Of a stretch of DNA of 64,000 nt, positions 7,130 through 40,325 are shown one piece after another. The notes beneath the pieces are model-generated. The model was not told the DNA's origin. It saw only the letters and a list, made by a program, of their open reading frames with translations, and ran no database searches. Position 1 is the stretch's first letter. Every line of letters starts with the position of its first letter. The stretch is from the human T2T-CHM13v2.0 reference genome, Homo sapiens. The stretch is from assembly GCF_009914755.1 (NCBI RefSeq), contig NC_060940.1. One strand, written 5' to 3'. A program made the position numbers and the translations under genes.

Positions 7130-35585
<28,456 letters not shown>

Positions 35586-35770
35586 ACAGTGATGGCTGTT
35601 TTCTTATCCCATGCCTGTACTTTTCAGCGGCTCCTTGCCAGACATCATAGGTCATTATTAATTATTGGTTTGCTATTTCATTCTTTTCCAATGCTCTTAA
35701 TGATTGTACGGTGGACCAGAAGCCAGGATTCCTCTCTGAACTCTGCAGTTAGGCATCACTTGAACTTGCC

Positions 35771-35971
35771 TGTGCCTGCTCTTTTTCCTCCCTGCACCGT
35801 CTATGCCGGGCTTAGCATGTTTCTTTTTAAATGAGGTTTGTCAGGATCAGGTAAAGTTCCTACAAGTGATTACAGAAGGTAGAAACTTTACCTGATCCTA
35901 ACAGATCTCATTTAGAAAGGAATATGCTAAGCCTGGCATGGACGGTGCAGGGAGGGAAAAGAGCAGGCACA
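35771..35971 (+). repeat. Long inverted repeat / RNA hairpin in ERCC4 3'UTR (93-nt arms, 15-nt loop)
   Basis: Manual alignment of 35771-35863 with revcomp of 35879-35971: 83/93 identical, no gaps. Confidence 0.97.
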
Positions 35972-36575
35972 AGAAAGCTACCATTTTTAACAGTCCTTGT
36001 TATCTAGTGCAACATAAATAACAGTCTTAATTGCACTTATACCCATGTCCTGTGGCTCTCCAAATCTGGTCTTTGCTGTTGTGTCTGCTGGACGCTTGAA
36101 CTGATGTTTGTGTAGGAAATCATGTTCTGACCCTTTGTCTACAAAGGAGCCTTCTGGAACACTGAGAAGAAACATCTCTTTGCCATTCCTGACCAGTTCT
36201 CTCTACCACATTTTCTTCAGCTCCATACTTCTGCCTGTCTGCTCTAAGGAAATTTCATGGAGCCTTCCTACTACTAATTCAAGACAGTCTCCTCAAAAAC
36301 TGGTTGACTAGTCTTCTAATGACCCTAACATATGTAGCATATACTATAATTTCATTGTTCCAAATTAGTATTTTTAAAGCAAAATGAATTACCTGTTTGC
36401 AAAAGTTAATGATGAAGGAGCTCTTAGAATTCTCAATTTTTGCACATATTCAGTCTCCTAATATCAGAGATCCCTAAGTCCAGCTGGCTAGTTACAGAGT
36501 TTTTTCAGACTTCCTCGTTTCTCAGCTCTTATATCCTAAGACACCAGCATCATATCCTCTAGAAATACAACCTAA

Positions 36576-36659
36576 TTGGCAGTGAGCCGAGATCGCACCA
36601 CTGCACCCCTGCCTGGGCGACAGAGTGAGACTTTGTCTCTATTACAAAAAGAAAAGAAA
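36576..36659 (+). mobile_element. 5'-truncated Alu in 3'UTR
   Basis: Last ~65 nt of Alu plus tail, perfect 15-bp TSD agaaatacaacctaa (36561-36575, 36660-36674). Confidence 0.9.
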
Positions 36660-37208
36660 AGAAATACAACCTAAGCTCACCTGCCTGTGATTCCTCATTT
36701 CTCACCATCCTGTGCCAGGGTGGCTACTTCTCTCTGTGAGGACTCAAATACAAGCCAATGAGTGGCCCACTAAGCTTTTAAGATTTGATTTTCCTGCCTT
36801 GAGATAAAAAGGAGTGTAGGTAAATGAAAGATCAATGTATGGAATATATAAAAATACGAAAGAAATATATACGTTTAAAAATCCATAAAGAAAAAAATCT
36901 CATTCTAAACCTGATTAAGTTGGCTTTTTACGTAAGTGTACAAATAGGATATTCACAGCATCTTTGTGCAGTTTTTAAACTTTTATATTTAAACATTATT
37001 AAGTTGGCTTTTGTTCACATGTTGAGTAATGGGTAGTAAATTTTCTACCTCAGGAGCTGATATAGACATCAGTTCTGCTAGCCATATCACATATTTTAAT
37101 GTTTCATCAACATCAGCTGTTTTTTTGTTTGCTACACTATTTGAACTAATAGACAGTGGATCATGTAACACAAAATTGTCTTCAACTTTAACAAAATTGT
37201 CATTGTTA

Positions 37209-37497
37209 TTTTTTTTTGAGACAGAGTCTCCCTCTGTTGCCCAGGCTGGAGTGCAGTGGCGCAATCTCGGCTCACTGCAACCTCGCCTGCTGGGTTCAAG
37301 CAGTTCTCCCACCTCAGCCTCCCAAGTAGCTGGGATTATAGGTGTGCACCACCAGACCCGGCTAATTTTTGTATTTTTAGTAGAGACGGGGTTTCACCAT
37401 GTTGGCCAGGCTGGTCTCAAACTACTGACCTCAGGTGATCCACCCACCTTGGCCTCCCAAAGTGCTGAGATAACAGGCGTGAGCCACCGCACCCACC
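37209..37497 (-). mobile_element. AluS in 3'UTR (antisense)
   Basis: Full dimer. Confidence 0.95.
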
Positions 37498-39553
37498 CAA
37501 CAAAATTATTTTTAACTGTCGTTTCTGAACTGAACCTCTCACATTGGCATCTTGATTTATTGGTACTTAACAGTATATATGGATTTTGAACTCTACACAA
37601 GGGTATAACCAGAATGAATTGAGGGGTATCAAGAACCAGATTGGTTACAGTAGAACTCTGTAAGATGATGTGGAGAGTAAGGAAAAGGAGAAGAAATAAA
37701 AATTAGTTTAAGATGGAATAAAGATTTGGGCTGCTAATTTTTTCCCAGGATTCAAAATATACCCGCTAGAATGGAAAACAAAAATTTGAATGATTACAAC
37801 ATTATCGTTAACATTCAATTTTGTATTTATTGTTTTATTGAATATAGTTCAGAGTATATTAAAATAGACCTACCACTTCAAATGATAATGATTATTATAA
37901 TGTCTCTTCACCCTATTCTAGCACTTCTGCTTGCAGTATGTGGTTTCTATTTTTTTCCTCTTGTATAATTCCACTTGCTTTTAATTGTTGTTTCATTATA
38001 TAAAAGGAACATCTTCCCATAGCATATTCTATGAAAGGGGTTTCATTCCAAGTTGAGTTTTCAAAAAAAAGGTCTTCCTAAAGCTACCATTTTCAACCGT
38101 CCTTGTTATCTAGTACAACATAAATAACAGTCTTAAAAATTGCACTAATACCAGTGCCCCCCTGGCTCTCCAAATCTGTTCTTTGCTCTTGTATCTGCTG
38201 GACGCTTGAAGACAGGTGCACTGTCTCGTATGTATTTGAATTATGAACAGTAATTTCTAATGAATTCTAAAATGGTCATTGTAAGTGAAAGCCTCTCGCT
38301 ACCACTTCCTCTTCCAACTACATAAATATATTTCAATGTATTTCCAGTTTTGGAAAGTTTTCAATACATACATCAAGTGTTTACTTAGATTTTTATAAAA
38401 ATTTTTTTTACAATCTAATAATCTTTGGTAAAGGAACTAGAGATGCATGCAGTTGCAAAATTAATGTATTTATTTTCCAGCATAATTTTATTAACTTCAC
38501 TTTTTTTCTCTCTAGTAAATATCCAGTGTACTTATGAACTCATGTTTGGCTCTTTTAAAACCTTTTCTAAAAGCTAGATCAGCATTTTTCTATTTTACAA
38601 GTTTTTTGTATAAAAAGGTGAACATATGAGATATTGTGAGAAATCATTTTAAGTTTCATTTAAATCATGGTGCCTCTTTTGATACTTTCTTAAAATTGTG
38701 CAAGAAGAAATCATTTTTAGTAGTGGTCATAAATATTATCCTTTTGGCAGTAAGCTATTACTAATTCAGCCTGAAGCTCGGTAGACAATATGTCTACATG
38801 TGTTTGAGTACATCCTGGATACAGTTTCCCAGCTCATGAGGGACTGAAAATAGTCTTATTCATCAACCCACTAGGATGTGAAGGGTTAAGTCTAGATTTG
38901 GTCGCATTGAAACCCCACAATATAGAATTAATAAATGGCCTTCAGTAGGAAAACCTACACTAAAGCAAATCCGAAGAAGTGGGGCAGGGGGAAAGAGGCA
39001 TTACTGGTCTTTCCTTTTGTTTTGCAAGCATAATTTGATTTTCCTTTGGCTCAGAAAACTCATTTGGGGAAATTCTCTTTTGTGTTCAGTTTAACCTAGA
39101 AAGGTCCTCTTGAAAAACCAACATTTTAGGAAAGTTCTTTTTTCAGGATGGAGTATATTAAAATTAAGCCAGGCTTTGACGTGAATTATCACTTTTCTTT
39201 ATTATTTTGTTTTCTATTTTGGTTTATAGCTATTTCTGGTTCAGTTCTGAACTTCAGCACTTAATCATCCTTATCAACCAGGCTTTTGGTAGCCTAAACC
39301 GCTATGCTGTTGTTTTTTTAATTTAAAGATGTATAAGCCAAAATTTGGATGGGAGTGAGACATAACTGATTTATATGAATTTTAACAGAGTTGTATTTGT
39401 GTGTGTTTAATAAAATATATATTTATTCAGTACTTTCCTCAGTATTTTATGGGCAAAGTAAAAATAACAATGCATAGTGAAAGGGCATATATTACCAGCA
39501 GTAATAATTCAAAATCCTGAAAATGTTTCATTTTTTTTGTTTTTGTTATGCAG

Positions 39554-39559
39554 AATAAA
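39554..39559 (+). terminator. Likely distal polyadenylation signal AATAAA
   Basis: Canonical hexamer with upstream U-rich tract and downstream ctttttgctgttt. Confidence 0.65.
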
Positions 39560-40325
39560 CAAGGCAGAAATGCTCTTTGAACCACTGCTTTTGCTGTTTA
39601 ATTCATTTGATAACCTACTTTCTAAGACTTGAAACTATTAGTTATTTTTCCTTTCTGCTTTTCATTCTGTATCATGTCTCCTTAAGGAGGAAAACAAAAC
39701 AAAACAAGAAAACTATTCTTCTGAAAATATTCATTTGTCAGTTTGTAATGAGTGTGTGGTAAACACAATGCCTGGGATATCTTAGCTCAACAAAGGTGAA
39801 TTCCTTGCCACTCCTGCCTCGTACATTTTTGTTCCTTTAATTTCAGAGTTGGAAGAAATGAATTATCCTTTCAACACCTCTGGAATTTATTGTAATCTTT
39901 CAAACAAGTTTAATTATTGGTTACTGATTGGCTCATTTCAATGATTTAATTACATTTGCTTCTTCAAAATGTAGATCTGTATCCCTTTTTAACAAGGTGT
40001 GAGACAGGTTATTTCTCAACATGTTTTAGTGTCTGAATAAAACTTTGGCAGACTAACCCCTTAGTAGCGGCACTGTAACTCACATTTTTTTAAAATCACT
40101 TATGCATTATCTCATTTAATCCTCATAACGAAGCCATGAAGGTACTATTATTTAATCTTGTTTTACATGATGAAACTGAGACACAGAGACGCTAAGTAAT
40201 TTGCTCAAGGTGGAACCATGATTTGATACCTTGATGTACAGCCCATAATGAAATAGTGGGGTTATGGGGGGTAGTGGGAAACATTTCTGTACACTTCTAT
40301 GTATCTGATTACAAATATGTCATAG

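What the first reader, a model, noticed from the sequence alone, without database searches (positions are those of the whole stretch)
35771..35971. Gap-free 93-bp RNA hairpin in the ERCC4 3'UTR with strand-biased G-U pairs
Seen: starting 186 nt after the stop, arms 35771-35863 and 35879-35971 pair without indels around a 15-nt loop. On the mRNA strand there are 83 Watson-Crick pairs, 8 G-U wobbles and 2 A-C mismatches (C35842/A35900, C35859/A35883), so 91/93 positions pair. The opposite strand would have 8 A-C mismatches. The 8:2 bias hints at selection on the RNA fold, but the one-sided binomial is 56/1024, about 0.055, so it is suggestive only. I do not recognise the sequence as Alu or a MITE. 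Established: duplexes this long are substrates for ADAR (A-C mismatches favoured; A35900 has a preferred 5' U), Staufen, PKR and Drosha/Dicer. Inference: a hairpin endo-siRNA/miRNA-like source or cis-acting element controlling XPF mRNA stability or export. I cannot exclude prior description in small-RNA surveys.
Basis: partly seen in the sequence, partly recalled or inferred. Interest (0 to 1): 0.85.

Follow-up and report, generated by a model that had tools for sequence, protein, structure and literature searches.

The report
Single-copy long RNA hairpin in ERCC4 3'UTR
The XPF (ERCC4) DNA-repair gene carries in its 3' untranslated region a one-of-a-kind 93-base-pair fold-back made by a local inverted duplication, not a transposon; it should form long double-stranded RNA in the mRNA, and its mutation pattern hints, without proving, that the pairing has been preserved.

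Summary
Arms 35771-35863 and 35879-35971 pair without gaps around a 15-nt loop, with 83 Watson-Crick pairs, 8 G-U and 2 A-C. The RNA MFE is -170 kcal/mol, z = -22.

It is not a repeat family. Whole-genome BLAST, two mismatch-tolerant patterns and a sequence model of the arms find only the two arms themselves. There is no target-site duplication, no repeat mask and no Rfam family. The best reading is a local template-switch or fold-back inverted duplication.

No canonical poly(A) signal lies before 37695, so canonical ERCC4 mRNAs should contain the hairpin.

All 10 arm differences are transitions, and 8 keep sense-strand pairing. Against nulls of 0.26-0.40 this gives P = 0.0006-0.012, or 0.004-0.057 with the 99-nt arms. 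That is suggestive of constraint, not proof.

A 93-bp stem does not fit vertebrate miRNA precursors. It does fit the profile of edited non-repetitive dsRNAs. ERCC4 editing is published, but I could not place the sites in the hairpin.

The most likely role is a binding platform for ADAR and other dsRNA-binding proteins, with a modest cis effect. A neutral relic is a close rival. Conservation across mammals could not be tested here.

The parts
35771..35863 (+). 5' (left) arm of the hairpin, pyrimidine-rich (58 of 93 are T or C)
   Evidence: It pairs gap-free with 35879-35971.
35864..35878 (+). 15-nt apical loop or spacer between the arms
35879..35971 (+). 3' (right) arm, purine-rich (58 of 93 are A or G). 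It carries the two A residues opposite C, A35883 and A35900.
35765..35770 (+). Outer extension of the left arm, probably part of the original duplication. 4 of 6 positions pair with 35972-35977.
   Evidence: It adds one A-C-type difference (35770/35972) and one transversion (35768/35974).
35972..35977 (+). Outer extension of the right arm
35771..35841 (+). Left side of the 71-bp uninterrupted helix (WC plus G-U), followed by runs of 16 and 4 bp
35583..35585 (+). ERCC4 stop codon TGA. The hairpin begins 186 nt downstream.
   Evidence: and the supplied RefSeq annotation.
37695..37700 (+). First canonical poly(A) signal (AATAAA) in the 3'UTR, 2110 nt after the stop. None lies upstream of the hairpin.

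Best explanation
A single-copy local inverted duplication sits in the last exon of ERCC4. It has 93-99 nt arms and a 15-nt spacer, which is the geometry of a replication template-switch or fold-back event.

It is transcribed as part of the 3'UTR of canonical XPF mRNAs. In RNA it folds into a rod-like duplex of 93 bp, 98% paired, with 71 contiguous pairs.

Such a duplex is expected to be bound by dsRNA-binding proteins and deaminated by ADAR. The two A-C mismatches would become I-C pairs. It is expected to act in cis as a modest brake on XPF output, through translation efficiency, stability or retention, as inverted-Alu duplexes in 3'UTRs do.

The substitution pattern (only transitions, mostly G-U on the sense strand, no indels) suggests that pairing of the sense RNA has been under some constraint.

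Shown: the structure, its uniqueness, its non-transposon nature, its position in the mRNA, and the substitution pattern.

Inferred: the origin mechanism, protein binding and editing, the cis effect, and the constraint.
For: Structure:
- Searches give 83 WC + 8 GU + 2 AC, -170 kcal/mol, z -22, and a hairpin that persists in an 800-nt fold.

Uniqueness:
- BLAST of the 241-nt and 106-nt queries finds only the locus itself.
- A 25-mer and a 28-mer, each allowing up to 3 mismatches, have 1 genomic hit each and 0 control hits.
- The sequence-only model of the two arms gave 17,474 first-look candidates, of which 150 were scored. Only the 2 arms are significant (E 5e-29 and 1e-28); the next best hit has E 0.56.
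- 0 of the 15 weak hits are palindromic.
- There is no TSD of 4 nt or more, and the locus is absent from the masked-repeat table.

Position in the mRNA:
- None of the 7 canonical poly(A) hexamers in the 3'UTR lies upstream of 37695.

Constraint:
- 10 of 10 differences are transitions and 8 of 10 are G-U type.
- The expected G-U fraction is 1/3 in theory. Empirically it is 0.27, from 340 differences in 10 other inverted pairs in the same transcription unit.
- P is 0.0007 at 0.27, 0.0034 at 1/3, and 0.012 at a conservative 0.40.
- As an internal contrast, a younger single-copy inverted duplication in ERCC4 introns shows a neutral-looking 3 GU: 4 AC: 2 transversions plus indels.

Literature:
- Template-switch events create inverted repeats of 28 to 83 bases in primate transcribed regions, which then gain point mutations (PMC10710096, passages).
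- Edited non-repetitive human dsRNAs have medians of 144 bp, 30 contiguous bp, -185 kcal/mol and 87.5% paired. Unedited ones have 75 bp, 14 bp, -45 kcal/mol and 75% (PMC11838218, Table 1). This hairpin has 93 bp, 71 contiguous bp, -165 kcal/mol and 98% paired.
- ERCC4 carries A-to-G sites that drop on both ADAR1 and ADAR2 knock-down (PMC3935819, one passage).
- ERCC4 has 2 3'UTR sites with increased editing in tumours (PMC4793219, Table 2).
- 3'UTR inverted-Alu duplexes cut translation 2- to 5-fold, independent of editing, when they lie 472-1842 nt from the stop codon (PMC3458544, abstract and section 13).
Against: - No direct data place editing, protein binding or any effect at this hairpin. 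The positions of the published ERCC4 editing sites are in supplements that were closed.
- The same 3'UTR holds another candidate duplex, an inverted Alu-like pair at 36579-36660 / 37197-37278 (82 nt, 80%).
- With the 99-nt arms the statistic weakens to 8 of 12 (P 0.004-0.057).
- The empirical null is pseudo-replicated: 5 of the 10 pairs share one Alu, and it consists of Alu sequence.
- Three of the four CpG copies survive in the arms. That argues for a rather young element, for which chance explains more of the pattern.
- In the Capshew reporters, duplexes 15-65 nt from the stop had no effect. At 186 nt this hairpin lies in the untested gap.
- Inverted duplicated sequences are generally selected against in mRNAs (PMC7006430, abstract and passages). 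The default expectation is therefore neutral or slightly harmful, not useful.
- Conservation in other mammals could not be checked.
Confidence: 0.5

Rival explanations
1. Neutral relic. A local inverted duplication arose tens of millions of years ago in a tolerant part of a long 3'UTR and is simply decaying. The RNA may be bound or edited incidentally, but nothing depends on it. The transition-only, G-U-rich pattern is a small-sample accident.
For: - The sample is only 10-12 differences.
- The P value rises to 0.057 with the 99-nt arms and a conservative null of 0.40.
- Zero indels among 10-12 substitutions is not unusual.
- 3 of 4 CpG copies are retained, consistent with a modest age.
- Arm divergence (K2P 0.12) fits about 28-121 My of neutral drift, depending on the rate assumed (the rates are recalled).
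- Most predicted human dsRNAs are unconserved: over 99% have phastCons below 0.5 (PMC11838218 passage).
Against: - 10 of 10 differences are transitions (0.018 at a transition fraction of 0.67).
- 8 of 10 preserve pairing specifically on the transcribed sense strand. Other inverted pairs in the same gene show the opposite tendency, 93 G-U type against 140 A-C type.
- Non-repeat inverted duplications are the class most depleted from mRNAs (PMC7006430 passage). Long survival in a constitutive UTR is therefore not the default.
Confidence: 0.35
2. Small-RNA source. The hairpin is cut by Drosha and/or Dicer into endo-siRNAs or miRNA-like RNAs. These would be perfectly or nearly complementary to the opposite arm of ERCC4 mRNA, giving self-targeting.
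For: - The stem is long and nearly perfect, with a 15-nt loop.
- A claim exists of endo-siRNA from a hairpin in the PTEN mRNA 3'UTR (PMC4933753; seen only as a search listing with title and start of abstract).
- Template-switch hairpins have become primate miRNAs (PMC10710096).
Against: - The stem is 93 bp against the canonical 30-35 bp.
- Vertebrates lack long miRNA hairpins, and human cells mature them poorly (PMC12553114).
- The 71-bp uninterrupted basal helix has no internal bulge about 35 bp from the base that could stand in for an apical junction.
- No Rfam miRNA family reaches its gathering score. The best is plant MIR7533 at 107 bits against 230, and it matches both strands alike, as any long hairpin would.
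- No MIR gene is in the RefSeq annotation supplied.
- That somatic mammalian Dicer handles long dsRNA poorly is recalled knowledge.
Confidence: 0.08
3. Decayed palindromic DNA transposon (MITE) whose relatives are too diverged to detect.
For: - The architecture is palindromic.
- The search tools state that they score only the best candidates and skip very common words, so very old copies below about 70% identity could be missed.
- Masked stretches shorter than 100 nt are not in the table I could read.
Against: - No second copy appears by BLAST, by mismatch-tolerant patterns or by the profile search.
- 0 of the 15 weak profile hits are palindromic.
- There is no TSD of 4 nt or more for any boundary within the scanned range.
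- The arms are 88-89% identical and gap-free. That is far better preserved than a family so old that every other copy has vanished.
Confidence: 0.04

Closest known systems
Inverted-repeat Alu (IRAlu) duplexes in human 3'UTRs
   Same: Both are intramolecular long dsRNA inside a 3'UTR of a cytoplasmic mRNA. Both are an expected ADAR substrate and dsRBP platform. IRAlus reduce translation independently of editing and depending on distance from the stop (PMC3458544).
   Different: This element is not Alu and is single-copy. It is 93 bp at 98% pairing, with a 15-nt loop and 71 contiguous bp. IRAlus are about 300 bp with medians of 31 contiguous bp, about 85% paired and about 2-kb loops (PMC11838218 Table 1). 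No experiment exists for this one.
Template-switch-mutation (TSM) hairpins, some of which became primate miRNA genes
   Same: Both are a one-step local inverted copy next to its template in a transcribed region, followed by point mutations and wobble pairs (PMC10710096).
   Different: The arm here is 93-99 nt, against the reported 28 and up to 83 bases. This element lies in a 3'UTR exon, whereas 81 of 99 intragenic cases lie in a sense-strand host intron. It is not an annotated miRNA. The event itself was not reconstructed because no outgroup sequence was available.
Non-repetitive edited dsRNAs of the human 'dsRNAome' (dsRNAscan catalogue)
   Same: It matches the profile of that class: a short loop, high pairing, long contiguous runs and a strongly negative free energy. 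By the published scoring (+3 per pair, -4 per mismatch, threshold 75) it would pass.
   Different: I could not see the catalogue tables. 'ERCC' does not occur in the main text. Exonic dsRNAs are stated to be rare there.
Hairpin-RNA endo-siRNA loci (Drosophila hpRNA, mouse oocyte hairpins) and the reported PTEN/YAP 3'UTR hairpins
   Same: All are long inverted repeats transcribed as one RNA, and siRNAs from them would match the host gene.
   Different: There is no small-RNA evidence here. The fly and mouse systems rely on Dicer forms that human somatic cells lack (recalled). The PTEN paper was seen only as a listing.
Palindromic MITEs such as MADE1, the source of the mir-548 family (recalled)
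   Same: Both are near-perfect palindromes able to fold into a hairpin when transcribed.
   Different: The defining features were tested and not met: multi-copy status and TSD.

Membership tests
MITE / palindromic DNA transposon | Many dispersed copies in the genome | tested here: not met
   Only the locus itself was found by BLAST, by the 25- and 28-mer patterns with up to 3 mismatches and by the arm profile: 2 significant hits of 150 scored, from 17,474 candidates.
MITE / palindromic DNA transposon | Target-site duplication flanking the terminal inverted repeats | tested here: not met
   No direct repeat of 4 nt or more flanks any boundary pair in 35755-35774 / 35968-35989. TSDs of 2-3 nt were not scored.
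MITE / palindromic DNA transposon | Annotated or masked as an interspersed repeat | tested here: not met
   No masked stretch of 100 nt or more lies between 34304 and 37196. Shorter masks are not listed, and Dfam was not available.
Canonical vertebrate miRNA precursor | Stem of about 30-35 bp with a terminal loop, flanked by single strands | tested here: not met
   The stem is 93 bp with a 71-bp uninterrupted basal run. The criterion is from the PMC12553114 summary.
Canonical vertebrate miRNA precursor | Match to a curated miRNA family or an annotated MIR gene | tested here: not met
   0 of 4227 Rfam families reach gathering score in the whole window. Sub-threshold generic hairpin hits appear on both strands. 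There is no MIR gene in the supplied RefSeq annotation.
Canonical vertebrate miRNA precursor | Discrete ~22-nt reads, Drosha/Dicer dependent, AGO loaded | not testable with these tools
Hairpin endo-siRNA (hpRNA-like) locus | Long inverted repeat transcribed on one RNA | tested here: met
   It lies inside the last exon of ERCC4, by the annotation.
Hairpin endo-siRNA (hpRNA-like) locus | Phased 21-23-nt Dicer-dependent small RNAs | not testable with these tools
   No small-RNA data are available.
ADAR-edited 3'UTR dsRNA | Duplex of at least 25-30 bp in an expressed transcript | tested here: met
   The duplex has 93 bp, 47 A among 186 stem nucleotides, and two A opposite C. It lies in the mature mRNA by the annotation, and no upstream poly(A) signal exists.
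ADAR-edited 3'UTR dsRNA | A-to-G RNA-DNA differences mapped inside the arms, ADAR dependent | tested here: inconclusive
   ERCC4 sites are reported, but their positions are in closed supplements. A second candidate duplex exists in the same UTR.
Template-switch (fold-back) inverted duplication | Inverted copy immediately next to its template, with a short spacer, and unique in the genome | tested here: met
   The spacer is 15 nt and the arms are 88-89% identical. The element is single-copy.
Template-switch (fold-back) inverted duplication | Outgroup lineages carry one arm only, and the event is reconstructed on a tree | not testable with these tools
Structurally constrained (functional) RNA helix | Excess of pair-preserving over pair-breaking substitutions | tested here: inconclusive
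   8 of 10 differences (or 8 of 12) are G-U type, against an expected 0.26-0.40. P ranges from 0.0006 to 0.057 depending on the null and the arm boundary. This rests on a single genome, and the changes are not polarised.
Structurally constrained (functional) RNA helix | Compensatory double substitutions across species | not testable with these tools
   No orthologous sequences are available.

The most novel reading that the evidence does not exclude
The hairpin is old (pre-primate) and kept by selection as a double-stranded RNA switch in XPF mRNA.

If G-U-type changes are the only ones that accumulated freely, the 8 seen imply a neutral-equivalent arm divergence of roughly 25-30%. That would mean most pair-breaking changes and all indels were purged.

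ADAR editing of the two A-C mismatches would complete a 93-bp helix. The element would then tie XPF output, and hence nucleotide-excision and crosslink-repair capacity, to ADAR, Staufen or PKR activity. Alternatively it would be a first vertebrate long-hairpin small-RNA locus acting on its own host mRNA.
Probability: 0.12. Interest if true: 0.75.

Novelty: new member of a known kind. Interest (0 to 1): 0.42.

Why it matters
XPF-ERCC1 is dose-sensitive. It limits nucleotide-excision and interstrand-crosslink repair, and its level influences the response to platinum drugs.

A constitutive, nearly perfect 93-bp dsRNA in the XPF mRNA would be a concrete, deletable post-transcriptional control element. 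It would also be one of the uncommon non-repeat duplexes that survive in a mature human mRNA, a class reported to be depleted by selection (PMC7006430).

It is a clean natural test case on three counts:
- Whether single-copy 3'UTR duplexes are ADAR, Staufen or PKR clients.
- Whether A-C mismatches are 'repaired' by editing.
- Whether template-switch duplications can give rise to constrained RNA structure.

If it proves neutral, it is still a useful dated example of a large template-switch event inside an exon.

Tried and rejected
**Transposon origin.** I looked for other copies in four ways, for palindromic structure at the 15 weak profile hits, and for TSDs. All were negative, so this reading was rejected.

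**Known RNA family.** I ran Rfam in E-value mode on 1 kb and at gathering score on the whole window. Only sub-threshold matches appeared: plant MIR7533, MIR530 and MIR6020, insect mir-276 and SRP. The top hit, MIR7533 (and also mir-276), matched both strands. I take them as generic long-hairpin matches.

**Neutral explanation of the G-U excess by transcription-coupled mutational asymmetry.**
- I expected a coding-strand bias towards A>G and C>T. This was recalled from Green et al. 2003, which I did not see.
- The local empirical control went the other way: 93 G-U type against 140 A-C type among 340 differences.
- I therefore no longer rely on this explanation. P values under a conservative 0.40 are still given.

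**Prior description.**
- Full-text searches found no paper describing this hairpin: ERCC4 + UTR + hairpin, ERCC4 + inverted repeat + dsRNA, ERCC4 + A-to-I + editing + UTR, ERCC4 + non-Alu + editing, a mixed ERCC4/XPF/Microprocessor/DGCR8/endo-siRNA/hiCLIP search, and ERCC4 + stem-loop + UTR + dsRNA.
- (ERCC4, ADAR1, Staufen; any 2 of 3) returned only ADAR1/Staufen papers without ERCC4 among the 25 listed.
- A search by coordinate prefixes, computed from gene start positions recalled from memory, found nothing relevant.
- Barak et al. 2020 and GAP-Seq do not mention ERCC4 in the main text.
- PMC11048297 concerns a coding site, not the UTR.
- PMC6533207 gave no position for the 3'UTR SNP it studies.

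**Closed supplements that could bear on the claims.** These are the editing-site tables of PMC3935819 and PMC4793219, the IDS tables of PMC7006430, and the dsRNAscan tables of PMC11838218.

**Other points.**
- Age could not be fixed. K2P 0.12 gives 28-121 My under recalled rates, and CpG retention points to the younger end.
- Clustering of 9 of the 10 differences in 35786-35842 was considered, but it is not significant by my own hand estimate (about 0.055, no call).
Full report
**1.
- The sequence and a base-by-base count give arms 35771-35863 and 35879-35971, a 15-nt loop, 83 Watson-Crick pairs, 8 G-U pairs and 2 A-C mismatches (C35842/A35900 and C35859/A35883). There are no indels.
- The stop codon is at 35583-35585, so the hairpin starts 186 nt downstream.
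- The repeat finder independently reports arms 35765-35863 / 35879-35977, 99 nt and 88% complementary. The six extra positions add one A-C-type difference and one transversion.
- The sense RNA folds into one continuous rod at -170.3 kcal/mol. Shuffles give -63.5 +/- 4.9 (z -22), and 0 of 200 shuffles fold as well.
- The antisense RNA is weaker, at -149.5 kcal/mol, with the eight wobble positions opened.
- The rod is unchanged when 800 nt of context are folded.
- The helix consists of uninterrupted runs of 71, 16 and 4 pairs. The stem holds 47 adenosines among its 186 nucleotides.
- In the 64-kb window there are 2 inverted repeats with arms of at least 30 nt and a spacer of at most 200 nt: this one and a 34-nt pair.

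**2. It is not a transposon or any recognisable repeat.**
- In the table of soft-masked stretches of 100 nt or more, nothing lies between 34304 and 37196.
- Whole-genome BLAST with the 241-nt hairpin and with one arm returns only the locus and its own other arm.
- A 25-mer and a 28-mer from the arm, each allowing three mismatches, have one genomic hit each and none for the reversed control.
- A sequence-only covariance model of the two aligned arms drew 17,474 first-look candidates from the genome. 150 were scored, and only the two arms are significant (E 5e-29 and 1e-28). The next hit has E 0.56.
- None of the 15 weak hits sits in a palindrome.
- No direct repeat of 4 nt or more flanks any plausible boundary.
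- Rfam gives nothing at gathering score in the whole window. It gives only generic sub-threshold long-hairpin matches, the top one (MIR7533) on both strands.
- Limits: the genome tools score only the best candidates, masks under 100 nt are not listed, and Dfam was not available.

**3. Origin.**
- An inverted copy lying 15 nt from its template, unique in the genome and without transposon hallmarks, is what a replication template switch or fold-back produces.
- Monttinen et al. (PMC10710096, passages) document such events of 28 and up to 83 bases in primates. They create perfect inverted repeats in transcribed regions that later acquire point mutations. At 93-99 nt this arm would be at or above that range.
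- ERCC4 contains a second, younger example. Arms 15523-15823 and 18791-19092 are 96-98% identical, 3 kb apart, unmasked and also unique in the genome.
- Arm divergence in the hairpin is 10.8% (K2P 0.12). Under neutral rates recalled from memory (0.5-2.2e-9 per site per year) this means roughly 28-121 My.
- Three of the four CpG copies survive, which favours the younger end.

**4. Place in the mRNA.**
- The hairpin lies in the last exon (34852-39586).
- All seven canonical poly(A) hexamers of the 3'UTR lie downstream; the first is at 37695.
- So any ERCC4 mRNA ending at a canonical signal includes the hairpin. Non-canonical proximal sites cannot be excluded.

**5. Is pairing under constraint?**
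- More informative is that all 10 differences are transitions, only one of them at a CpG. Eight of the ten keep a pair on the sense strand.
- With a transition fraction of 2/3 and no strand bias, a difference is G-U type with probability 1/3, and P(at least 8 of 10) is 0.0034.
- As a local control I compared the 10 other inverted pairs inside the ERCC4 transcription unit, mostly Alu. Of 340 differences, 93 were G-U type, 140 A-C type and 107 transversions. Excluding CpG contexts the counts were 70, 100 and 92 of 262.
- The empirical G-U fraction is therefore 0.27, which gives P = 0.0007. A conservative 0.40 gives 0.012. With the 99-nt arms (8 of 12) the range is 0.004-0.057.
- Caveats: 5 of the 10 control pairs share one Alu. 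Alu sequence is not an ideal neutral proxy. The arm boundary matters, and the changes are not polarised.
- I had expected transcription-coupled asymmetry to favour G-U. This was recalled from Green et al. 2003, which I did not see. [quoted passage not shown] The local control does not show such a bias.
- The younger intronic duplication shows 3 G-U, 4 A-C and 2 transversions plus single-base indels, a neutral-looking mix.
- Overall this is suggestive evidence for preservation of the sense-strand helix, not proof.

**6. What it most likely does.**
- By established knowledge, a duplex of this length is bound by dsRNA-binding domains without sequence specificity, and ADARs deaminate it promiscuously. 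A opposite C is the favoured context.
- A35900 has the preferred 5' U. A35883 has the disfavoured 5' G.
- Andrews and Bass (PMC11838218, summary, passages and Table 1) report the following medians.

| Class | Length (bp) | Contiguous bp | Free energy (kcal/mol) | Paired (%) | Loop |
|---|---|---|---|---|---|
| Edited non-repetitive dsRNA (median) | 144 | 30 | -185 | 87.5 | 509 nt, with a peak below 100 nt |
| Unedited non-repetitive dsRNA (median) | 75 | 14 | -45 | 75 | 1407 nt |
| This hairpin | 93 | 71 | -165 | 98 | 15 nt |

- The hairpin therefore sits with the edited class.
- Wang et al. (PMC3935819, one passage) name ERCC4 among genes with A-to-G sites that fall on knock-down of both ADAR1 and ADAR2.
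- Zhang et al. (PMC4793219, Table 2) list two ERCC4 3'UTR sites with increased editing in tumours.
- I could not see the positions of any of these sites. The same UTR also holds an inverted Alu-like pair (36579-36660 / 37197-37278, 82 nt, 80%) that could host them.
- Capshew et al. (PMC3458544, abstract and section 13) showed the following for 3'UTR inverted-Alu duplexes. They stay cytoplasmic. They lower translation 2- to 5-fold independently of inosine. They do so when placed 472-1842 nt from the stop but not at 15-65 nt.
- At 186 nt, this hairpin lies between the tested distances.
- My best reading is a dsRBP/ADAR platform with a modest cis effect on XPF output (confidence 0.5). A functionless relic is the main rival (0.35).

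**7. The miRNA or endo-siRNA idea.**
- Canonical precursors have 30-35-bp stems. Vertebrates lack long miRNA hairpins, and human cells and recombinant Microprocessor handle extended hairpins poorly. [quoted passage not shown]
- Here the basal 71 bp are uninterrupted.
- There is no family match and no MIR gene in the supplied annotation.
- A precedent claim exists for siRNA from a PTEN 3'UTR hairpin (PMC4933753, listing only).
- I give this reading 0.08. It needs small-RNA data.

**8. Comparison and novelty.**
- Functionally, the element resembles IRAlu duplexes. By origin, it resembles template-switch hairpins. It fails the tested defining features of MITEs and of canonical miRNA precursors.
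- Inverted duplicated sequences are depleted from mRNAs, most strongly the non-repeat ones (PMC7006430, abstract and passages). Exonic dsRNAs are rare. The element therefore belongs to an uncommon but known class.
- It would almost certainly be listed in genome-wide catalogues whose tables I could not open.
- Seven full-text searches and one coordinate search found no paper that describes it individually.
- Verdict: a real, single-copy, structurally remarkable 3'UTR hairpin. It is a new member of a known kind.

Noticed in passing
window 15523-15823 and 18791-19092: A second single-copy inverted duplication lies inside ERCC4. Its arms are about 300 nt, 96-98% identical in three gapless blocks, about 2.97 kb apart, unmasked, and the only two copies genome-wide. 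The arms flank coding exon 17949-18129 (181 nt). The left arm overlaps the alternative first exon 15783-15930 of XM_054379811.1. In pre-mRNA it would form a ~300-bp near-perfect duplex looping out that exon, making it a candidate for back-splicing, exon skipping or heavy editing. Its differences look neutral: 3 G-U, 4 A-C and 2 transversions, plus indels.
   Followed up: partly
window 36579-36660 and 37197-37278: An inverted Alu-like partial pair lies inside the same 3'UTR (82 nt, 80% complementary, 536 nt apart). It is an alternative host for the published ERCC4 3'UTR editing sites.
   Followed up: no
window 7393-39586 (ERCC4 transcription unit): Among 10 old inverted repeat pairs, A-C-type differences on the sense strand outnumber G-U-type differences by 140 to 93. 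In the five pairs that do not share the Alu at 37203 the counts are 55 to 36. This is opposite to what I expected from the recalled coding-strand G+T mutational bias. Yet the introns do show a slight G+T excess of +0.025. It is unexplained and may reflect Alu subfamily differences or pseudo-replication.
   Followed up: partly
window 35771-35971: The arms are compositionally polarised. The left arm has 58 of 93 pyrimidines and the right arm 58 of 93 purines. Nine of the ten differences fall in 35786-35842, leaving the basal 15 bp perfect and a single A-C mismatch (35859/35883) in the apical 21 bp. The clustering is not significant by my hand estimate.
   Followed up: partly
window 17302-17335 and 17432-17465: A small AT-rich inverted repeat (34 nt, 88%, 96-nt spacer) lies in an ERCC4 intron. 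It is the only other short-spacer inverted repeat in the window.
   Followed up: no
window 18592-18649 and 19200-19257: A 58-nt, 78% complementary inverted pair lies just outside the right arm of the 300-nt duplication. Its nature was not examined.
   Followed up: no
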